From: a virus
Direction: 5' to 3' (one strand)
DNA length: 64,000 nt
IMG/VR virus record: IMGVR_UViG_3300020198_000887
Location: 1 to 64,000 of that record
The notes beneath the pieces are model-generated. The model did no database searches, had not been told where the DNA came from, and saw nothing but the letters and a program-made list of their open reading frames with translations. Position numbers and translations under genes: made by a program. This document shows, piece by piece, positions 1 through 6,862 of this stretch (the first letter of the stretch is position 1; the number at the start of each line of letters is the position of its first letter).

Positions 1-271
1 CAACTGTAATTTTGACCTTAGGGGAAGATCATGAATAAATTAATGAAAGTAGCATTGATGGCATTGGTATCCAGCTTTGCGGTTGGTTGCGCAACCAACG
101 GCGACGTTGAAAATCTGCAAACACAAAGTTGGACAGCATGTTCAAAAAAATCACAACATAAGTAATAAAATTTAGAAGATTCATGGAATCTTCTAAAAAT
201 ATCCGTTGTATAATTGCAGACAAAGATTTAGACACATTAACACTTATACCGAAGGTGAATCCAAAAATTTT

Positions 272-502
272 ATGAAAATTGTTAAATTAAATAAGACACA
301 CACTTTATTTCATAAAGGATGTACAGTTGCATTGCGTTTCAATTCACCTTGGTCATCAGGGGCCATTCAATGTAGAAAAGCTCTAGCAACCATTGATAAT
401 ACAAAATGGTTTAAATTTAATAGTGGTCATAGAAGACCATACTGGATTGGTTTTACAGATGAAAAATTAGTAACTTGGTTATCATTAATAGTCGATAATT
501 AA
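272..502 (+). CDS. hypothetical phage protein
   Basis: ORF 206..502; ATG at 272 after AAGGTG is the likelier start. Confidence 0.5.
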   Translation: MKIVKLNKTHTLFHKGCTVALRFNSPWSSGAIQCRKALATIDNTKWFKFNSGHRRPYWIGFTDEKLVTWLSLIVDN

Positions 503-710
503 AAAAATGTGCCATAAGCAGTGAAAAATGTAGTGGTATGTATGTGATACAAATATTAAGTTCTTTTCAGCATAATTAATTGGGAAATACAAGCGACACT
601 AAATCGTAAGTTAGAAGGTTCAAATCCTTCAAAAAACAAAGAACCTGCTGTTAAAAATAACTCAACCATATTCAATACATAAACAATAAACTTATTTGAT
701 AAGTAGTTGT

Positions 711-1154
711 ATGTTAACAATTTATACCAATAATCAACAGCATACAACATATATAAAATTAACTGAAAAAATATCACAATTTGATAATGTTGGAATTTTA
801 TACTTGCACTTACCATTTTATGATGGTATAATAGATAAAATCAAACTAGATTACGATGTTCCATATAATGATGTTATATCAATAAATGAACATACGAAAA
901 ATTATAAAAGTTTACGGGATAAATTTAAGCGTGAACATTACCATAAAGATTTTGAAATGCGATATTTCACAAATGGGACTGCTACATTTTCAATAAGTAT
1001 TAATAATACGATCTTTGAACTTATAGTGGAACCAAATGATTTGATTTGTATACCACCCAATGTCAAGCATTGGTTCGATGCTGGGGATAATCCAAATTTT
1101 ACAGCAATACGATTTTTTACTGATAAAAATGGATGGGATGCAATTTATACTTGA
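711..1154 (+). CDS. mtnD: acireductone dioxygenase (ARD/MtnD-like cupin)
   Basis: EHYHKDFEMRYF (metal-binding EHxH..E), DLICIPPNVKHWFDAG and FTAIRFFTDKNGW match ARD cupin motifs. Confidence 0.8.
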   Translation: MLTIYTNNQQHTTYIKLTEKISQFDNVGILYLHLPFYDGIIDKIKLDYDVPYNDVISINEHTKNYKSLRDKFKREHYHKDFEMRYFTNGTATFSISINNTIFELIVEPNDLICIPPNVKHWFDAGDNPNFTAIRFFTDKNGWDAIYT

Positions 1155-1179
1155 CAGTTGACCACAGTTGGTATATAAT
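1151..1179 (+). promoter_or_regulatory. sigma70-type promoter for the RNA cluster
   Basis: TTGACA (1151-1156), 17-nt spacer, TATAAT (1174-1179). Confidence 0.8.
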
Positions 1180-1195
1180 ACATATATAGATTAAA

Positions 1196-1279
1196 AGGAT
1201 AGCTACAGCATCAACCAAATTACAGGTTCGATTCCAGTCCCTATAATGGGACTGCTTAACTGGTAAAGCATCTATCCTG
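1196..1279 (+). ncRNA. Y-RNA/YrlA-like RNA copy 1 (closing stem + CAGCA, reduced permuted tRNA module)
   Basis: AGGATAG pairs with CTATCCT; encloses T-loop GGTTCGATTCC, looped acceptor-like stem AGTCCC-TATAAT-GGGACT and D-arm GCTTAACTGGTAAAGC, in the order T, acceptor, D. Confidence 0.7.
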
Positions 1280-1334
1280 ATGAAGATTTATTGCGTTATG
1301 GCGATATGGAGAAATTGGTAAACTCAGCAGACTT

Positions 1335-2023
1335 ATGAAATTGAGCACACGTGATAGAAACACCCGGGTGAATGTACTTAAATTCGGTGAACTCTTAACA
1401 GGTAATGCTGATGACAATACCGAGCTAAATTTTGGATTGTATGTTACGACCTCTATATGTTGGGGTAAATGCATGACAGTTTGGACATAGTAATCGTAGA
1501 TTCGATAATTCATTATTTGTATTATCACCATCTATGTGATCTAATTCAAGCGAAATTGGTTTAGATAACCATTCGGATAAATTACAAGATGAACATATTG
1601 GGTTAAAAACCCCATTATTAAGTAATTTTATTTTTAATTTATATGAATGGATAGTTGAACCCTTTTGTAGATATTCTTCAATTGGTTTTGATCTTTCTGG
1701 AAATTTTCTTCCACCTAGATTCTGTCCAGTGAAATGACTAGTATCTAAATTAAAATGTTTTATAGCACGTTTCAATGTGGTATAATTCCCACCAGCTGGT
1801 GCAACATTTAATTTTTGTAATACTTGTCTTAAAGATACAGAAGTAACAACAGCGTTTTGTAAATCAGTTAACGTGTATTTAAATAGTTTCATAAAATAAT
1901 CCATTAGAAGTGTAGAGACTTAACAGGTACTACCTACGTTGTATTTATGCAATATGGTAAAGATAAAGTCCAGACCACAAACTATGTTTACTAAATATAG
2001 GTAGTGAAAACTATAGTGGTACG
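1335..2023 (+). mobile_element. group I intron in tRNA-Leu(UAA) after U34
   Basis: core elements AAATTCGGTGAA (P), CAATACCGAGC (Q), GTGTAGAGACT (R), AAGATAAAGTCC (S); 5' exon ends in U, intron ends in G. Confidence 0.9.
1425..1904 (-). CDS. HNH homing endonuclease, antisense within the intron
   Basis: CSSC...LELDHIDGDNTNNELSNLRLLCPNCH zinc-HNH motif; lies between intron Q and R elements. Confidence 0.88.
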   Translation of the reverse strand: MDYFMKLFKYTLTDLQNAVVTSVSLRQVLQKLNVAPAGGNYTTLKRAIKHFNLDTSHFTGQNLGGRKFPERSKPIEEYLQKGSTIHSYKLKIKLLNNGVFNPICSSCNLSEWLSKPISLELDHIDGDNTNNELSNLRLLCPNCHAFTPTYRGRNIQSKI

Positions 2024-2080
2024 AAAATCTGCCGTCGAAAGACTTCCCGGTTCGAGTCCGGGTATCGCTACCAAACAAAT

Positions 2081-2173
2081 GAAGAGTTGGGTGAGTGGTT
2101 AAAACCACCTTCCTGCTAAGAAGGCATACGGTTAAAAGCCGTATCGTGGGTTCAAACCCCACACTCTTCGCCA
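2081..2173 (+). tRNA. trnS: tRNA-Ser(GCU)
   Basis: GAAGAGT/ACTCTTC + GCCA; CCTTC-CTGCTAA-GAAGG; long variable arm. Confidence 0.92.
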
Positions 2174-2178
2174 AGTTT

Positions 2179-2233
2179 ATGATACATTTAGCAGTTTAAA
2201 AAACAAACTTAAAATTTGAAAAAACGTATCCTG
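2179..2233 (+). ncRNA. Y-RNA-like motif copy 2 (short, degenerate)
   Basis: ATGATACATTTAGCAG...CGTATCCTG, close to copy 3 ends (AGGATACATTCAGCAA...CGTATCCGG); A-rich interior. Confidence 0.5.
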
Positions 2234-2419
2234 TATAAATATTATATTCAACAACATATAGAATGGTATGAAATATACAAAGAAGTTGGGTTTGACGAGT
2301 TTGTAAGAAGAACTGGGTATAATTATTCAAAACCAAATTTAGTAACAGCATTTTCTAAATTAGTTCCGAATTTTATTCCACAAAACGGTAAGAAAAGATA
2401 TTCCCCTGTAGCTCAGTAG
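2216..2419 (+). pseudogene. ORF fragment, possibly the C-terminal remnant of an endonuclease-type gene
   Basis: protein-like 67-aa frame with no convincing start/RBS, running into tRNA-Asn. Confidence 0.3.
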
Positions 2420-2670
2420 GTAGAGCAGTTGACTGTCAAAAGGCAGCTTCTATTGGAAACAATAGTTGAAAAATCCATCAAATTCGGTGAAACCTAAAAT
2501 CGTATGAATATGGCAATACCGAGCCAAGCCTGGAAATAGGAAGGTGTAGAGACTAGACGGTGGAGACCTAAGTTCATAAGAATATGGTCGTGGTATAGTC
2601 CAGAGAGTAATGAAAATTGCACAAATCTGTAATCAATTGGTCGGCGGTTCGAGCCCGTCCGGGGGAGCCA
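2402..2670 (+). tRNA. trnN: tRNA-Asn(GUU), intron-containing; exons 2402-2436 and 2630-2670
   Basis: TCCCCTG/CGGGGGA + GCCA; spliced anticodon arm GTTGA-CTGT|TAA-TCAAT. Confidence 0.88.
2437..2629 (+). mobile_element. compact group I intron (193 nt, no ORF) between anticodon positions 35 and 36
   Basis: P1 CTGT|C-AAAA-GGCAG with U-G at the splice site; AAATTCGGTGAAACC, GGCAATACCGAGCC, GGTGTAGAGACT, GGTATAGTCC; terminal G. Confidence 0.88.
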
Positions 2671-2675
2671 AAATG

Positions 2676-2799
2676 CATAGCGTCGGCTTTACGCTATGGT
2701 AGGAAAGTGCCTACTGCTCAACGTATATGAGTATCTGCGAAGCAGAAACCTACGGGTTGCCTAACAAACTACAACTAGAGTTGTTATTCGAGTAACAAC
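2676..2799 (+). ncRNA. unidentified multi-hairpin structured RNA
   Basis: five abutting hairpins 2676-2758 plus a hairpin at 2780-2799. Confidence 0.45.
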
Positions 2800-2814
2800 A
2801 TAAGCAACTATTAT

Positions 2815-2891
2815 TGCGAGCTCGACTGTCTGGTGATGTCACCAGTTTCATAAGCTAGTTTAGGTCGGTCCGATTCCGGCACTCGTTTCCG
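2815..2891 (+). pseudogene. degenerate tRNA with CAU anticodon
   Basis: cloverleaf spacing with TTCATAA loop; mismatches in acceptor and anticodon stems, TCCGATT T-loop, no CCA. Confidence 0.6.
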
Positions 2892-2899
2892 GGTATTAC

Positions 2900-2965
2900 C
2901 GGAGATTAGACCAGTTTGGAAGGGCGATCCTATAGGTTATATGTTTTAAATCCTACCACTTCCGA
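2900..2965 (+). pseudogene. highly degenerate tRNA remnant (Pro-like body)
   Basis: CGGAGATTAGACCAGTTTGG...AAATCCTACCACTTCCGA resembles the 5' and 3' ends of a tRNA; middle is scrambled. Confidence 0.3.
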
Positions 2966-2992
2966 TGAGTTATACATATAAAAATTTAGCAT

Positions 2993-3069
2993 GGTCGGGT
3001 GACGGAATAGGCATACGTACAGATTTTAGATGTCTGGTGTTGGGAGTTCGATTCTCCCATCGACTACCA
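2993..3069 (+). tRNA. trnL: tRNA-Leu(UAG) with short variable loop
   Basis: Leu-type D arm ACGGAATAGGCATACGT; CAGAT-TTTAGAT-GTCTG; GGGAGTTCGATTCTCCC; ACCA end. Confidence 0.75.
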
Positions 3070-3197
3070 TATTAAAAAAATATTCATGGACCATGAATAG
3101 TGAGACAAATAATTTCTAACTACTTCATTGTGGTTTATATTTGGTACTGACCATGATTATGATTAATAAATATTAAAACATAAAATAAGGATGTATA

Positions 3198-3362
3198 ATG
3201 GCAGCAAGAAATGATGTAACTGGTGACCCTATTCAAACTAGGCCATCCTCTCAAGCATACCGTGACAATTGGGATGCTATTTTCGGTAAAAAGAAAGAAG
3301 ATAAAAAAGCGGTATCTGATACTTCACAAGAGAACAAATCTCTTGACAATAATAATAATTAA
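3198..3362 (+). CDS. small hypothetical phage protein (54 aa)
   Basis: AAGGA RBS; MAARNDVTGDPIQTRPSSQAYRDNWDAIFGKK; below the ORF-track cutoff. Confidence 0.7.
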   Translation: MAARNDVTGDPIQTRPSSQAYRDNWDAIFGKKKEDKKAVSDTSQENKSLDNNNN

Positions 3363-3371
3363 GGATATAAT

Positions 3372-3581
3372 ATGTCAACAGTTAGTAAATCAAGCAGACC
3401 ACGTAATGCACCTGGTAAAACACGTAATGGTAAAGTTAAAATTGTTTCACTTACATTATATCAACTACAAGAAATGATAGCAACTGTACATAGACCACGT
3501 GATAAATGTAAATATCAAAATTATATAAATGTTCTTATTAAAAAGGTAAATAAAAATGGCCGTAGAAATAATAAAATGTAG
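3372..3581 (+). CDS. small basic hypothetical protein
   Basis: AAGGA RBS; 69-aa ORF. Confidence 0.6.
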   Translation: MSTVSKSSRPRNAPGKTRNGKVKIVSLTLYQLQEMIATVHRPRDKCKYQNYINVLIKKVNKNGRRNNKM

Positions 3582-3708
3582 TTGTTCAGGCACACCAGCT
3601 GCTGAATTCCAAGACAAAACATATGGAAAAGGTATGCGAGTTATGAATTTAGATTTTAAAAAAGTAAACGCAACTTGTACAGTATGCGGTGCTAAACATA
3701 GGAATTAA
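3556..3708 (+). CDS. small zinc-ribbon protein (50 aa)
   Basis: MAVEIIKCSC...QDKTYGKGMRV...CTVCG; AAGGT RBS. Confidence 0.6.
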   Translation: MAVEIIKCSCSGTPAAEFQDKTYGKGMRVMNLDFKKVNATCTVCGAKHRN

Positions 3709-3716
3709 AGAATACA

Positions 3717-3792
3717 GCCCCTGTAGCTCAGTTGGTAGAGCGATTCACTTAAAGTGAGGATGATGTGGGTTCAAATCCTGTCGGGGGCCCCA
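3717..3792 (+). tRNA. tRNA with Thr-like class I body but anticodon loop CTTAAAG (UAA); function uncertain
   Basis: GCCCCTG/CGGGGGC + CCCA; canonical D and T arms; short variable loop. Confidence 0.65.
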
Positions 3793-3797
3793 ATTTT

Positions 3798-3909
3798 AGG
3801 ATACATTCAGCAAATCTAAAGCACCCTAGATGTCGTAGGTTCAAATCCTACATTCTCATAATGAGAATTAGCTCAGTTGGTAGAGCGCCAGGCTAAAAAC
3901 ACGTATCCG
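3798..3909 (+). ncRNA. Y-RNA/YrlA-like RNA copy 3 with a complete circularly permuted tRNA domain
   Basis: GGATAC/GTATCC closing stem + TTCAGCAA; CCTAG, ATGTC, T arm GTAGGTTCAAATCCTAC, ATTCTCA-TAA-TGAGAAT, TA, D arm GCTCAGTTGGTAGAGC, G, CCAGG. Confidence 0.82.
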
Positions 3910-3931
3910 GTTTTAATTACACGAGGCAAAC

Positions 3932-4207
3932 ATGACAACACAAGTAACAGCAAGACATATTTTAGTTGATACACTAGAAGAAGCGCAAGCATTAGCAAAA
4001 CAAATCAATGAAGGTTCAGATTTTGCACGATTGGCCAGACAACATTCAAAATGTCCTAGTGGAAAAAACGGTGGTGATTTGGGTACATTTGGCCGTGGAA
4101 TGATGGTTCAACCATTCGAAAATATTTCATTTGAACTAGAAATTGATGGGGTGAGTGACCCAGTACAAACACAGTTTGGGTATCACCTAATCAACAGAAC
4201 TGCATAA
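3932..4207 (+). CDS. ppiC: parvulin-type peptidyl-prolyl isomerase
   Basis: ARHILV, FARLARQHSKCPSGKNGGDLG, VQTQFGYHLI. Confidence 0.93.
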   Translation: MTTQVTARHILVDTLEEAQALAKQINEGSDFARLARQHSKCPSGKNGGDLGTFGRGMMVQPFENISFELEIDGVSDPVQTQFGYHLINRTA

Positions 4208-4208
4208 A

Positions 4209-4493
4209 ATGACATACCAAATTATTAACGAACGTGTTCTGGTTAAAAAACCAAACGACCCTAAAAAATCAGCATTTGGAATCATCATTGCCAATGACTC
4301 TTCTGAAAAAACTATTACTGGTGAAGTAATTGGAATTGGTGAAGGAAAACCATTGGAAAATGGTGATTATAGACCAATGACAGTTAAGGTGGGCGACAAA
4401 GTAATGCTACCGAACGGTATTGGGATTGAAGTAACGATTGATGAGCAAGAATGCATTGTTATTAAAGAAGATGATATTCTGTTAATAATGTAA
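4209..4493 (+). CDS. groES: co-chaperonin GroES
   Basis: ERVLVK...GIII...GEVIGIGEG...PMTVKVGDKV...IKEDDIL. Confidence 0.9.
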   Translation: MTYQIINERVLVKKPNDPKKSAFGIIIANDSSEKTITGEVIGIGEGKPLENGDYRPMTVKVGDKVMLPNGIGIEVTIDEQECIVIKEDDILLIM

Positions 4494-4500
4494 TGAAAAA

Positions 4501-4585
4501 GGGTTAGTTTCAGCAATATTATTGTACATGAAAAATACCAGACGCCAGGTAGGGAAATAAGCAATACCCAATGGCGACTAACCCG
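4501..4585 (+). ncRNA. Y-RNA-like motif copy 4
   Basis: GGGTTAGT/ACTAACCC stem, TTCAGCAA, internal CGCCA...TGGCG helix. Confidence 0.65.
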
Positions 4586-4592
4586 TATAAAT

Positions 4593-4677
4593 GCTGAAGT
4601 GACAGAATGGTTATGTACCGGTCTGCAAAACCGTAATTCCGAAAGGTAGTGTGGGTTCGTCCCAATCTTCAGCTCCA
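4593..4677 (+). tRNA. trnC: tRNA-Cys(GCA), atypical (long variable region, short T loop)
   Basis: GCTGAAG/CTTCAGC + TCCA (U73); loop CTGCAAA; extra CC-GAAA-GG arm. Confidence 0.7.
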
Positions 4678-4684
4678 TATTGTT

Positions 4685-4895
4685 AGGATGGGTTCCGCAA
4701 TAAAATTTAATTAATTCTATTAGTATAAATGCTACACTGGATGTATACAGTTATATGTAATGGATATTGCTAGAAAGAGTAACTAGATATGCTCCAATCT
4801 GAATATTGGATATTTCTTATAGAAATAAGATATGGTTGCGGATTATATCTGATGACAACCAGAAACAATAAAATACATCAAATCCGACCATCCCG
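4685..4895 (+). ncRNA. Y-RNA-like motif copy 5 with ~180-nt multi-hairpin insert
   Basis: GGATGG/CCATCC stem with GTTCCGCAA; internal hairpins such as TCCAAT/ATTGGA and TGGTTG/CAACCA. Confidence 0.55.
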
Positions 4896-4913
4896 TATAA
4901 CTTTTTTATTTTT

Positions 4914-5143
4914 ATGTCATATATAGTAGAATTACCACTTACCGCGAATATTGTCCAGAATGGTGGAAACAATTATGTTTAAAATATAATTCAATATCCG
5001 AAGATGAACTTTTAGAAGATACTATTCGTTCATATAGTATTGAAAATGGCGTAACTATACATCTTGATGAAGACCATGATGCAATTGAATACATTGAATT
5101 TAATAGTGAAGCACGATTTCAATGGTTTTTATTAAAGATATAA
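4914..5143 (+). pseudogene. probably frameshifted small phage gene
   Basis: ATG 4914 frame stops early; the -1 frame reads EYCPEWWKQL...EFNSEARFQWFLLKI* with no own start. Confidence 0.35.
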
Positions 5144-5171
5144 TTGACACCATTCCAAACTCTGCTTTAAT
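5144..5171 (+). promoter_or_regulatory. sigma70-type promoter of the TROVE-like gene
   Basis: TTGACA, 16-nt spacer, TG-N-TTTAAT. Confidence 0.55.
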
Positions 5172-5179
5172 ACAATTAT

Positions 5180-5219
5180 AGATTAGTAACAGCAATCAAG
5201 ATTACTACATACTAACCTG
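5180..5219 (+). promoter_or_regulatory. Y-RNA-like motif copy 6 in the 5' leader of the TROVE-like gene
   Basis: AGATTAGTA/TACTAACCT with ACAGCAA, ending 5 nt before the AGGAG RBS. Confidence 0.6.
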
Positions 5220-5234
5220 AAATAGGAGATATTC

Positions 5235-6746
5235 ATGACTACATTCGTAGAAGACGCACGAGAACAAGAATCACGCATATCAAATGGGGTGGCTGCTCAT
5301 AAGACCACTACCAATAAAGCAGTGGATTTATTCTTTAATATTGGTGCAAGTAGAGGAAAGGACATTATTCCAGCGTTTACCGCAGCATATGCGGAAAACA
5401 AAGATCTAGCACTTCGTATTGCATTATGGGCGCGTGATGCTCGAGGTGGTGCAGGTGAACGTAAATTGTTCAGAGATATTCTTGTGCATTTAGAAACTGT
5501 TGACACCGATGCTGCAAAAGCATTAATTAATAAAACAATATTGGTAGGAAGGTGGGATGACTTATTAGTGTTTAAGACACCGGAATTGCAACAAGTGGCT
5601 TTCACTAAAATTAAAAACACACTTGTTGCAGGAATACAAGCTAAATCATTATTAGATAGATTTGATGCAATGACTGAAGAAGAAACACTAAAACAAAAAC
5701 TTCAATCACAAATATTCGAAGCAAAATTAGTTGCAAAATGGATGCCTCGTGAAAACTCGGCAAAAAGAAAAATTGCTCAAAAATTAATTAAATTTTTTGG
5801 ATGGTCGCCAAAATATTATCGTAAAACATTGGTTTCATTGACTTCGGTGGTTGAAAACAAAATGTGTGCGAATGATTGGGATAATATTAACTTCAGTCAT
5901 GTTCCATCTTTAGCTAGCTCACGTTATAAAAAAGCGTTTAATCGTCATACACCAAAATTTGCTGAATATGTACAATCATTGATCAACGGTGAACCAACTG
6001 TCAAAGTCAATGCTGGTGCAGTATACCCATATGATATTATTAAAGGAATTGGTATATATGGGTATGATAAAACTGAAAATGCCCATATCGTTGCACAATG
6101 GGATTCTCTTCCAAATTATGTAGGTGATGCTAATATTTTACCTTTGGTTGATGTTAGTGGGTCTATGCAGTGTAGAGCTGGTGGTAATAAATCCAACTCA
6201 GATGTCACGTGTATGGATGTAGCAGTATCCTTGGGGTTATATATAGCTAATAAAAATTCTGGTAAATTTAAAGATACCTTTATCACGTTTAGTGAAACCC
6301 CTGAATTGCGCACATTGCGTGGTAATATTGTGGAAAAAGCAACACAAATGATTGCCTCAAATTGGGGTATGGGAACTAATTTACACGCTGCATTTGACTT
6401 GATTTTAGACGTAGCAACCAAGTTTGATGTTCCACAAAGTGAAATGCCAGAAATGCTACTTATTCTGACGGATATGCAATTTAATTGCTGCACACATTAT
6501 GATGATAGTGCAATTAAAATGATTGAACGTAAGTATACCGCAGCTGGTTATAACACCCCGTTGGTTGTATTTTGGAATATCAATTCATCTGATAACGTCC
6601 CAGTGAAAGCAGACAAATCAGGTGCAGCATTGGTTTCAGGGTTTAGTTCTGCTATCGTTAAATCATTATTGGCAGCTGATATGGGTAATTTCACACCAGA
6701 AGGCATTTGTCTTAACACAGTAATGATTGATAGATATACTATTTAA
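5235..6746 (+). CDS. TROVE/Ro60-like protein with C-terminal vWA domain (DUF2828-type)
   Basis: helical N-terminal region (RDARGGAGER, GRWDDL, AKWMPRE); MIDAS DVSGSM, GTNL, LTDMQF, VFWNI, LVSGFS. Confidence 0.82.
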   Translation: MTTFVEDAREQESRISNGVAAHKTTTNKAVDLFFNIGASRGKDIIPAFTAAYAENKDLALRIALWARDARGGAGERKLFRDILVHLETVDTDAAKALINKTILVGRWDDLLVFKTPELQQVAFTKIKNTLVAGIQAKSLLDRFDAMTEEETLKQKLQSQIFEAKLVAKWMPRENSAKRKIAQKLIKFFGWSPKYYRKTLVSLTSVVENKMCANDWDNINFSHVPSLASSRYKKAFNRHTPKFAEYVQSLINGEPTVKVNAGAVYPYDIIKGIGIYGYDKTENAHIVAQWDSLPNYVGDANILPLVDVSGSMQCRAGGNKSNSDVTCMDVAVSLGLYIANKNSGKFKDTFITFSETPELRTLRGNIVEKATQMIASNWGMGTNLHAAFDLILDVATKFDVPQSEMPEMLLILTDMQFNCCTHYDDSAIKMIERKYTAAGYNTPLVVFWNINSSDNVPVKADKSGAALVSGFSSAIVKSLLAADMGNFTPEGICLNTVMIDRYTI

Positions 6747-6831: not shown

Positions 6832-6862
6832 ACCTTATACCTTCATGGTATAGGGTTTTTTG
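6832..6862 (+). terminator. intrinsic terminator
   Basis: ACCTTATACC-TTCAT-GGTATAGGGT followed by T-run. Confidence 0.7.

What the first reader, a model, noticed from the sequence alone, without database searches (positions are those of the whole stretch)
3798..3909. Complete circularly permuted tRNA domain opened at the anticodon loop
Seen: 3' anticodon strand (CCTAG), variable loop ATGTC, perfect T arm, acceptor stem closed by a TAA loop (ATTCTCA/TGAGAAT), canonical D arm, then 5' anticodon strand (CCAGG). The anticodon loop is replaced by the linker to the GGATAC/GTATCC handle. Established: this T-acceptor-D order is the YrlA architecture. Copy 1 (1196-1279) has a reduced version with a different sequence, so the phage holds at least two tRNA mimics. 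Inference: it has no anticodon or CCA, so it cannot decode, but it could attract tRNA-modifying or tRNA-cleaving enzymes.
Basis: partly seen in the sequence, partly recalled or inferred. Interest (0 to 1): 0.8.

Follow-up and report, generated by a model that had tools for sequence, protein, structure and literature searches.

The report
Inside-out tRNA mimic in phage Y-RNA
This stretch of a large uncultured phage encodes a small RNA shaped like a tRNA whose acceptor end is sealed and whose anticodon end opens into a conserved "handle". It is a divergent, uncatalogued relative of bacterial YrlA Y RNAs and most likely the RNA partner of a Ro60-like protein encoded 1.3 kb downstream.

Summary
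Window 3799-3908 holds a complete T arm, a sealed 7-bp acceptor hairpin and a D arm in permuted order. A 4/5-bp anticodon-type stem and a 6-bp handle (GGATAC/GTATCC) close it.

It is not chance, an assembly join or a dead tandem tRNA.
- Twelve orthologues from related phage contigs keep all helices: 94% of cells paired, 16 of 27 pairs with double changes, 0/500 shuffles as good.
- A model built from them scores the element at 107.5 bits, against 37 bits or less for adjacent normal tRNAs.
- When un-permuted and given a loop, ARAGORN reads it as a canonical 76-nt tRNA.

The architecture is that of YrlA, but family membership fails on several defining features.
- Rfam RF02553 gives 36.5 bits against a cut-off of 69.
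- The GNCGAA Ro-binding motif is replaced by NNN-CAGCAA.
- The neighbouring protein (5235-6746, DUF2828+DUF7788) has no Pfam TROVE hit, although its predicted fold matches Ro60 over its full length.

The RNA always follows a tRNA 3' end within a tRNA array. The same system occurs in cultured phages (Felixounavirus, Synechococcus phage BUCT-ZZ01).

I class it as a new variant of a known kind. Earlier notes of this scan report the same RNA-protein pairing in many other phage genomes. Binding, processing and function are all untested.

The parts
3717..3792 (+). Upstream tRNA whose encoded CCA end lies 5-6 nt before the element (context; its 3' processing would define the element's 5' side).
   Evidence: ARAGORN; Rfam tRNA 55.1 bits. 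In 10 of 12 orthologues a tRNA ends 4-6 nt before the element.
3799..3804 (+). Handle 5' strand, GGATAC.
   Evidence: Pairs with 3903-3908 in every fold. The helix is 98.6% paired in orthologues, with an A-U to G-C swap in L173. Across the wider family the stem covaries freely.
3805..3813 (+). Three variable bases (ATT) plus the conserved single-stranded motif CAGCAA; presumed protein-binding site.
   Evidence: CAGCAA sits at the same offset in 12 of 14 tRNA-like elements. GGNNNN-NNN-CAGCA with a closing stem occurs 205 times on the gene strand and 7 times on the other strand of 80 related loci.
3825..3829 (+). 3' strand of the anticodon-type stem, CCTAG (tRNA positions 39-43).
   Evidence: Pairs 4/5 with 3888-3892. 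Covaries in L166, L173 and L181. A competing local hairpin uses 3814-3818 with 3827-3831.
3830..3834 (+). Variable loop ATGTC (positions 44-48, C48).
   Evidence: The G15:C48 Levitt pair is kept in 7 orthologues and is A15:U48 in 3.
3835..3851 (+). T arm: 5-bp stem with loop TTCAAAT.
   Evidence: 100% paired in 12 orthologues, 2 pairs with double changes; the GGTTCRANTCC core is invariant.
3852..3868 (+). Acceptor stem sealed by a TAA loop (7 bp).
   Evidence: All 7 pairs show compensatory changes among orthologues. Stem length varies from 6 to about 12 bp.
3869..3887 (+). U8-A9 linker, D arm (GCTC / AGTTGGTA / GAGC) and G26.
   Evidence: 100% paired. Stem variants GATC/GATC, GCAC/GTGC and GTGT/GCAC are compensatory.
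3888..3892 (+). 5' strand of the anticodon-type stem, CCAGG (positions 27-31).
3893..3902 (+). A-rich 3' linker, CTAAAAACAC.
   Evidence: An A-rich run before the 3' handle strand is conserved in orthologues.
3903..3908 (+). Handle 3' strand, GTATCC, followed by GGTTTT (most relatives have TGTTTT).
1197..1277 (+). Second, reduced tRNA-like handle RNA (GGATAG/CTATCC, CTA-CAGCAT, weak T arm, short acceptor hairpin, D arm).
   Evidence: R1 38.5 bits; Rfam YrlA 19.9 bits; fold. A 12/12 sigma-70 consensus lies at 1151-1179.
2180..2231 (+). Handle-only paralogue, right after tRNA-Ser. Its flanks are 82-87% identical to those of the main element.
   Evidence: Repeat families D14 and D17; R1 22.9 bits.
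4502..4583 (+). Handle RNA with non-tRNA cargo (GGTTAG-TTT-CAGCA...CTAACC).
   Evidence: Pattern scan.
4686..4893 (+). Largest handle RNA (GGATGG-GTT-CCGCA...CCATCC).
   Evidence: Pattern scan.
5235..6746 (+). Gene of the Ro60-like protein (DUF2828 + DUF7788/vWA); presumed protein partner.
   Evidence: Pfam. The AlphaFold model's top 12 PDB matches (listed ranks 1-13; the tool skips one duplicate chain) are all Ro60/TROVE over the full length (TM 0.38-0.63). PHROG 850 covers both this protein and true TROVE phage proteins. hhalign gives 97.5% over the vWA half.
3343..3371 (+). Perfect sigma-70-type promoter consensus that could drive tRNA, handle RNAs, ppiC, groES and the Ro-like gene as one unit.
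   Evidence: 12/12 match. The only + strand terminator-like site after the element and before the end of the Ro-like gene region is at 6832-6856. This is a consensus match only.

Best explanation
The element is the tRNA-mimicking effector module of a phage Y-RNA-like small RNA.

Shown by sequence and comparison:
- It is a real, conserved structured RNA with a tRNA top half: a T arm stacked on a sealed acceptor stem, plus a D arm that can form the elbow.
- The RNA ends lie on the anticodon side, closed by a 6-8-bp handle followed by NNN-CAGCAA.
- It sits in a tRNA array directly after a tRNA 3' end, on the same strand as, and 1.3 kb upstream of, a protein predicted to have the Ro60 fold.

Inferred:
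- It is cut out of the tRNA-operon transcript by the tRNA-processing nucleases.
- The handle with CAGCAA docks on the Ro60-like ring, as Y RNA stems dock on Ro60/Rsr.
- The tRNA-like module projects from the ring. It either recruits a host protein that recognises the tRNA elbow (an exoribonuclease such as PNPase, or a tRNA-processing or modifying enzyme) or gives the RNA a nuclease-resistant fold. Either way the particle would be directed to RNA, probably tRNA, surveillance during infection.
- It cannot decode. [quoted passage not shown] They are not conserved among relatives.
For: Structure:
- Canonical tRNA positions.
- Rfam YrlA alignment of T, AS and D.
- The un-permuted sequence is called a tRNA.
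- 94.2% pairing, 16/27 pairs with double changes, 0/500 shuffles as good, slid controls 32-45%.
- R1 gives 107.5 bits, against 37 bits or less for neighbouring normal tRNAs.
- Minimum-energy folds of L139, L159, L161 and L177 recover all arms unaided, z = -3.6 to -4.6.

Partner:
- The model of ORF 5235-6746 matches phage, frog, human and Deinococcus Ro60 over its full length.
- It shares PHROG 850 with true TROVE proteins.
- Handle RNAs pile up just upstream of this gene in 80 related loci and are strand-specific, 205 against 7.
- Phages with a true TROVE gene carry T-AS-D RNAs right beside it.

Not cis-regulatory: the downstream neighbour varies (ppiC, tRNA, other handle RNAs, the Ro-like gene).

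Precedent: YrlA RNAs bind Rsr, are modified by TruB and DusA, and one is cut by RNase P (PMC4201824). Phage Ro60 binds phage Y-like RNAs and host PNPase (PMC12135203).
Against: - There is no transcription, binding or processing data.
- The published Ro-binding motif GNCGAAN0-1G is absent.
- The protein does not hit Pfam TROVE. Profile-profile homology to TROVE proteins was significant only over the vWA half.
- The structure model is of moderate confidence (pLDDT 71).
- The nearest-neighbour energy of the cloverleaf-type fold (-21.3 kcal/mol) is worse than the minimum-energy fold (-29.4), which breaks the D arm and the anticodon-type stem.
- No RtcB, Rnl1, Rnl2 or CCA-adding enzyme gene was found in the 142 kb held, which is about 37% of the genome.
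- Only about 13 of 80 related loci show a T-AS-D member within 6 kb upstream of the gene.
Confidence: 0.78

Rival explanations
1. A tRNA-like RNA that works without the Ro60-like protein. For example, it could be a decoy or sponge for host tRNA-directed enzymes or defence nucleases, or a processing landmark in the tRNA operon. The handle would then serve only as a processing or stability signal.
For: It is embedded in the tRNA array directly after a tRNA. The canonical Ro-binding motif is missing. The tRNA-like member is often kilobases from the gene, whereas the handle-only members hug it. Some orthologues carry anticodon-like 7-nt loops.
Against: The same handle and motif are shared with the copies that sit immediately before the Ro-like gene in nearly all 80 loci. 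T-AS-D RNAs also accompany true TROVE genes. This element has no anticodon loop, which is what most known tRNA-cleaving defence nucleases target (general knowledge).
Confidence: 0.13
2. A permuted tRNA gene of the Cyanidioschyzon type. The two halves would be joined at the anticodon side and opened at the acceptor end to give a decoding tRNA.
For: The permuted order is the same. The 7-bp acceptor stem with a 3-nt loop could be opened by RNase P. The un-permuted sequence scores as a tRNA.
Against: There is no anticodon loop sequence and no bulge-helix-bulge motif. Bacteria lack the splicing endonuclease (general knowledge). Orthologues have acceptor stems of 6 to about 12 bp and differently connected or missing anticodon stems, which a decoding tRNA could not tolerate. 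The conserved handle and CAGCAA motif have no role in that pathway.
Confidence: 0.02
3. A decaying remnant of two tandem tRNA genes, or an assembly join of two tRNA halves, with no function.
For: The D arm is identical to that of the tRNA 80 nt upstream, and the V/T region is 86% identical (families D1 and D19).
Against: The same architecture occurs in four independent metagenome assemblies and in more distant phages. The acceptor sequences there are completely different but still complementary. True adjacent tRNAs score 37 bits or less against 107.5.
Confidence: 0.02
4. A cis-acting leader structure that regulates the ppiC-groES genes starting 23 nt downstream.
For: It ends at 3908-3910 and the ppiC start codon is at 3932. 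The closest relatives keep ppiC downstream.
Against: In other orthologues the next feature is a tRNA, another handle RNA, the Ro-like gene or an unrelated ORF. The element is one of a modular family that shares one handle.
Confidence: 0.03

Closest known systems
YrlA (Y RNA-like A; Rfam RF02553), partner of bacterial and mycobacteriophage Ro60/Rsr (Chen et al. 2014, PMC4201824; structure 6CU1, 10.1101/312249)
   Same: - The ends pair in a stem.
- The tRNA-like domain runs T arm, closed acceptor stem-loop, D arm.
- The elbow nucleotides and the GCUC/GAGC D stem are conserved, and the Levitt pair covaries.
- Acceptor and anticodon-type stem lengths vary.
- It is encoded on the same strand within 4 kb of a Ro60-type gene, sometimes next to tRNAs.
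   Different: - It scores 36.5 bits against the 69-bit cut-off.
- GNCGAAN0-1G is replaced by NNN-CAGCAA directly after the stem.
- There is no middle 7-bp stem.
- The partner is a DUF2828/DUF7788 protein without a Pfam TROVE hit.
- It is one of about six modular RNAs interleaved with tRNA genes, each starting a few bases after a tRNA CCA.
Thermus phage phiLo Ro60 with Yrl1/Yrl2 (PMC12135203; PDB 9KOP, 9L5Y)
   Same: A phage-encoded Ro60 ring with several phage-encoded Y-like RNAs near the gene. These structures are the best structural matches of the window's protein model (TM 0.56-0.63).
   Different: The phiLo RNAs were picked by a CGAA motif and are not described as tRNA-like. The phiLo protein is a recognised TROVE protein.
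Phage T-AS-D RNAs beside true TROVE genes, found here in IMG/VR (L041, L086, L090, L104-L106, L113, L120)
   Same: The same permuted tRNA core and the same D arm; they are also below the Rfam cut-off.
   Different: Their 5' motif is TTA-CTTCR (for example GGTTACTTCG), not CAGCAA, and the partner hits Pfam TROVE.
Permuted tRNA genes of Cyanidioschyzon merolae and some archaea (recalled knowledge, not tested)
   Same: The 3' half is encoded before the 5' half.
   Different: Those genes mature into decoding tRNAs through a circular intermediate. This element has no anticodon loop and has a conserved handle.
Dictyostelid Class I RNAs (Kjellin et al. 2021, PMC7919456)
   Same: A short stem joins the ends. 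A conserved motif lies just after the 5' stem strand. The interior is variable, the 5' G is conserved, and the 3' end is CUGU with the C paired to the 5' G. Most phage relatives end in ...CC-UGUU.
   Different: They are eukaryotic, 42-65 nt long, have no tRNA-like cargo, and the known binder is an RRM protein. I recall the 11-nt motif as ending in ACAGCAA, but I could not confirm its sequence in the held texts. This is a lead, not a finding.

Membership tests
YrlA (Rfam RF02553 / Chen et al. 2014) | tRNA-like domain in the order T arm, closed acceptor stem-loop, D arm, with elbow-forming bases. | tested here: met
   Rfam alignment; covariation; ARAGORN on the un-permuted sequence; G15:C48 or A15:U48.
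YrlA (Rfam RF02553 / Chen et al. 2014) | GNCGAAN0-1G motif near the 5' end (putative Rsr contact). | tested here: not met
   A regular-expression search found it in none of 14 elements. CAGCAA occupies that place.
YrlA (Rfam RF02553 / Chen et al. 2014) | Score at or above the Rfam gathering threshold (69 bits). | tested here: not met
   36.5 bits for 3807-3913; 19.9 bits for 1184-1296.
YrlA (Rfam RF02553 / Chen et al. 2014) | Encoded within 4 kb of a Ro60/Rsr (TROVE) gene and on the same strand. | tested here: inconclusive
   A Ro60-fold protein gene starts 1.3 kb downstream on the same strand. However, Pfam TROVE finds nothing in the 142-kb record.
YrlA (Rfam RF02553 / Chen et al. 2014) | Bound by Rsr; modified by TruB and DusA. 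| not testable with these tools
   Needs immunoprecipitation and modification mapping.
Y RNAs in general | 5' and 3' ends form a stem carrying the Ro60 site; the interior is a variable effector module. | tested here: met
   The handle stem covaries across more than 200 elements while cargoes differ. That the stem is the Ro site is an inference.
Functional permuted tRNA genes | Anticodon loop restored after end joining, and an acceptor stem of exactly 7 bp opened to give a CCA end. | tested here: not met
   There is no loop sequence here, and acceptor stems range from 6 to about 12 bp in orthologues.
Ro60/TROVE proteins (for the partner) | HEAT-repeat ring plus a C-terminal vWA domain with a MIDAS motif. 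| tested here: met
   Foldseek's top 12 matches (listed ranks 1-13) are all Ro60, aligned over the full length. The DVSGSM motif is invariant in the 30-homologue alignment and aligns with the TROVE-protein motif in hhalign. The model pLDDT is 71, so this is a prediction.

The most novel reading that the evidence does not exclude
In this phage the sealed 7-bp acceptor stem is opened by host RNase P and given a CCA tail. That would yield a two-piece, chargeable tRNA look-alike tethered to the Ro60-like ring. Alternatively, the intact mimic titrates a host tRNA-elbow-binding defence or processing factor. In either case the particle would be an active phage weapon in the contest over tRNAs rather than a housekeeping surveillance complex.
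Probability: 0.1. Interest if true: 0.8.

Novelty: new variant of a known kind. Interest (0 to 1): 0.55.

Why it matters
Ro60/Y-RNA particles are known in animals, in bacteria and in a few phages, and what the tRNA-like half of YrlA does is still open.

This element shows that the same inside-out tRNA design is kept in a much larger, uncatalogued branch:
- The RNAs share a different handle (NNN-CAGCAA).
- They pair with a DUF2828 Ro60-like protein found in 707 cultured phage records.
- Those include Felix O1-type coliphages and a Synechococcus phage, where I found the same kind of RNA.

That gives genetically tractable systems in which to ask what the tRNA mimic recruits. It also flags mis-annotations, namely an antisense 'hypothetical protein' and a 'tRNA-Pseudo', lying over these RNAs.

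Tried and rejected
- Pfam TROVE, RtcB, Rnl1, Rnl2 and CCA-adding enzyme in the phage's 142-kb record: none found. The Rnl1 control rang nowhere, so that result is uninformative.
- Sequence search of the protein against PDB chains: nothing.
- Single-sequence structure prediction: unusable, pLDDT 41. The 30-sequence alignment was needed.
- Search for close relatives with the single protein in viral contigs: none. The alignment query found 586.
- DNA similarity to cultured phages: only the neighbouring tRNA matched.
- Rfam at a permissive threshold: no family other than YrlA and tRNA over the element.
- Minimum-energy folding of the window's sequence alone does not return the D arm or the anticodon-type stem, so the model rests on comparison.
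- Literature searches for DUF2828, for Ro-like phage proteins and for the Class I motif string gave no description of this RNA family.
- Rejected readings: cis-regulatory leader, tandem-tRNA relic, decoding permuted tRNA. Reasons are given under the rival explanations.

Full report
**What is there**

The window is the first 64 kb of a 142-kb IMG/VR phage record judged 37% complete, so it is probably a jumbo phage. Positions 1-5200 form a tRNA array. It holds four ARAGORN tRNAs, a fifth found by Rfam, and a tRNA split by a group I intron.

Directly after the tRNA at 3717-3792 lies the reported element. Read base by base it runs:
- GGATAC (3799-3804)
- ATT-CAGCAA (3805-3813)
- an 11-nt linker
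- CCTAG (3825-3829)
- ATGTC (3830-3834)
- T arm GTAGG/TTCAAAT/CCTAC (3835-3851)
- ATTCTCA-TAA-TGAGAAT (3852-3868)
- TA
- D arm GCTC/AGTTGGTA/GAGC (3871-3886)
- G
- CCAGG (3888-3892)
- CTAAAAACAC
- GTATCC (3903-3908)

All junction lengths and the bases that make tRNA tertiary contacts are canonical: U8, A14, G15:C48, G18G19, G26, T54:A58, C56, G53:C61. The only correction is that the anticodon-type stem has a C.A mismatch, giving 4 of 5 pairs.

**Is it more than chance?**

- ARAGORN finds nothing in the native order. When the two halves are swapped and a 7-nt loop is inserted, it calls a canonical 76-nt cloverleaf.
- Rfam's YrlA model aligns the T arm, closed acceptor and D arm at 36.5 bits, E = 2e-5 for 6 kb. 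No other family matches.
- The strongest evidence is comparative. Using an alignment of homologues of the neighbouring protein, I fetched 80 related phage loci. In them I found orthologous elements by nhmmer and by pattern.
- Twelve of these elements were aligned. For the five helices I specified, 94.2% of cells are paired, and 16 of 27 pairs show changes on both sides, including all 7 acceptor pairs. No shuffle out of 500 reaches any measure. Sliding the partners by 1-3 columns drops pairing to 32-45%.
- A covariance model built from that alignment scores the window's element at 107.5 bits. Junctions between ordinary neighbouring tRNAs score at most 37 bits.
- The closest orthologues come from four different metagenome assemblies. 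They have a completely different acceptor sequence (CATTTC/GAAATG) that is still complementary.

An assembly join or a decaying tandem duplication is therefore excluded.

**Variation among orthologues**

- The invariant part is the T loop, the D loop with its GG, and the T and D stems, that is, the tRNA elbow.
- The acceptor stem ranges from 6 to about 12 bp.
- The anticodon region takes three forms:
  - a long-range stem between the two sides, as here and in L123/L124, L166, L173 and L181, with covariation at 27:43, 28:42 and 31:39;
  - a closed hairpin with a 7-nt anticodon-like loop before the variable loop (L161, L177);
  - a closed hairpin after the D arm (L139, L159).
- In the window a local hairpin (AUCUA/UAGAU) competes with the long-range stem. 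The nearest-neighbour minimum (-29.4 kcal/mol) prefers it over the cloverleaf-type fold (-21.3 kcal/mol).

So 'opened at the anticodon loop' is the best reading for this copy, but it is the least secure helix.

**Context and partner**

The element belongs to a family that shares a closing stem (GG....), three variable bases and CAGCA(A).
- In the 80 loci this pattern with a matching 3' stem occurs 205 times on the strand of the neighbouring gene and 7 times on the other strand.
- Most copies pile up just before that gene.
- In the window the members are at 1197-1277 (a reduced tRNA-like copy, 38.5 bits), 2180-2231 (handle only), 3799-3908, 4502-4583 and 4686-4893.

The gene (5235-6746) encodes a DUF2828 + DUF7788 protein.
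- Pfam TROVE does not detect it.
- Profile-profile comparison with true phage TROVE proteins is significant only over the vWA half: 97.5%, E = 7e-12.
- An AlphaFold model from 30 homologues (pLDDT 71) has Ro60 structures as its top 12 listed PDB matches over the full length. These include Thermus phage phiLo Ro60 (TM 0.56-0.63), Xenopus and human Ro60, and Deinococcus Rsr.
- PHROG 850 covers both this protein and a true TROVE phage protein end to end.
- Some mycobacteriophage records already annotate it as 'Ro-like RNA binding protein'.

I tested that claim as described above.

**Independent support from TROVE phages**

A pattern scan of IMG/VR for T loop, 18-24 nt, then D arm returned 15 further phage loci with a perfectly paired 7-bp sealed acceptor.
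- In 9 of 13 records, and in 6 of the 7 that are at least 90% complete, a true TROVE gene lies close by: right beside the RNA in six and 0.5-2 kb away in three, on the same strand in all nine.
- None of these RNAs reaches the Rfam cut-off.
- They carry yet another 5' motif, TTA-CTTCR.

Permuted tRNA mimics next to Ro60-type genes are thus common in phages and are under-detected by the current Rfam model.

**What it is not**

- It is not a cis-regulatory leader. The downstream neighbour is ppiC in the closest relatives but elsewhere a tRNA, another handle RNA, the Ro-like gene or an unrelated ORF. The upstream neighbour is a tRNA ending 4-6 nt before the element in 10 of 12 cases.
- It is not a decoding permuted tRNA gene. 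There is no anticodon loop, acceptor stems vary in length, and there is a conserved handle.

**Mechanism**

Shown: a conserved tRNA-elbow mimic with a sealed acceptor, joined by a conserved handle, co-located with a gene for a Ro60-fold protein.

Inferred:
- The RNA is released from the tRNA-operon transcript. A 12/12 sigma-70 consensus lies at 3343-3371. The only + strand terminator-like site between the element and the end of the Ro-like gene region is at 6832-6856. These are consensus matches only.
- The handle with CAGCAA binds the Ro60-like ring.
- The tRNA-like module recruits a tRNA-elbow-binding host factor or stabilises the RNA.

Precedents: YrlA binds Rsr, is modified by TruB and DusA, and the 7-bp-stem YrlA of M. 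smegmatis is cut by RNase P and CCA-tailed (PMC4201824). Its crystal structure is a close tRNA mimic whose conserved D and T stems are proposed to bind an unknown effector (10.1101/312249). Phage phiLo Ro60 binds phage Y-like RNAs and host PNPase (PMC12135203).

The window's copy has the 7-bp stem, but its closest relatives have 6 bp. I give RNase P opening about one chance in four here and do not regard it as the conserved function. No RNA-repair genes were found in the part of the genome held.

**Comparison with the known, and novelty**

It works like YrlA and has YrlA's architecture. It fails three membership features: the Rfam score, the GNCGAA motif, and a Pfam-recognisable TROVE neighbour.

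I found no paper or Rfam family describing the CAGCAA-handle RNAs.

The protein occurs in 707 cultured phage records. I found matching RNAs in:
- Escherichia phage pinkbiff (Felixounavirus): four handle RNAs in the tRNA array after the gene, one of them T-AS-D at 50.6 bits. It is overlapped by an antisense 'hypothetical protein' annotation.
- Synechococcus phage BUCT-ZZ01, at 49.1 bits.
- More weakly, Citrobacter phage Ci1, where part of the RNA is annotated as a pseudo-tRNA.

Earlier notes of this scan report the same RNA-protein pairing in many other phage genomes. I treat those as leads, and my own checks agree with them.

**Verdict**

This is a real, conserved tRNA mimic and a new variant of a known kind. 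It is of moderate interest in itself and of more interest as one face of a widespread, undescribed phage Ro60-like/Y-like RNA system.

Noticed in passing
window 3717-3792: The tRNA just upstream is odd. It has a class I shape with anticodon loop CTTAAAG (anticodon UAA by the Rfam alignment, while ARAGORN calls Phe-aaa) and two non-standard pairs in the anticodon stem. Its D arm is identical to that of the mimic.
   Followed up: partly
window 2402-2680: A tRNA gene interrupted in the anticodon loop by a compact group I intron (Rfam Intron_gpI 59.5 bits at 2420-2622). ARAGORN misses the gene.
   Followed up: no
window 4593-4674: Rfam finds a tRNA (39 bits, long variable arm) that ARAGORN does not report.
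   Followed up: no
L041, L086, L090, L104, L105, L106, L113, L120 (IMG/VR): Phages with a true TROVE/Ro60 gene carry T-AS-D permuted tRNA mimics next to it. These share a 5' motif TTA-CTTCR (for example GGTTACTTCG) instead of GNCGAA, and all score below the Rfam YrlA cut-off. This looks like a second unmodelled phage YrlA subclass.
   Followed up: partly
L188:890-1000: In one relative the same CAGCAA handle encloses a tRNA body in normal order (D arm, anticodon arm, T arm) with the handle taking the place of the acceptor stem. This is the opposite permutation.
   Followed up: no
L205:6466-6592 (Escherichia phage pinkbiff) and L203:6899-7083 (Citrobacter phage Ci1): Cultured-phage copies of the RNA are covered by an antisense 'hypothetical protein' CDS (pinkbiff_41) and by a 'tRNA-Pseudo-AAC' feature. 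Both are likely mis-annotations.
   Followed up: partly
3' flanks of handle RNAs in L123-L202 (for example ...GTATCC-TGTT): Most elements end in CC-UGU(U). Dictyostelid Class I RNAs likewise have a short end-joining stem, a motif after the 5' strand and a 3' CUGU (PMC7919456). I could not confirm the sequence of their motif in the held texts.
   Followed up: partly
window 1151-1179 and 3343-3371: Two perfect 12/12 sigma-70 consensus promoters (TTGACA-17-TATAAT). The first lies about 10 nt before the reduced tRNA-like copy at 1197.
   Followed up: no
window 3932-4493: A parvulin-type PpiC rotamase and a GroES (Cpn10) gene sit between the handle RNAs, inside the same apparent operon as the Ro-like gene.
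   Followed up: no
window 1425-1904 (- strand): An HNH endonuclease-like ORF lies antisense within the tRNA region, close to a tRNA-like 3' half at about 1997-2075 that ARAGORN does not call.
   Followed up: no
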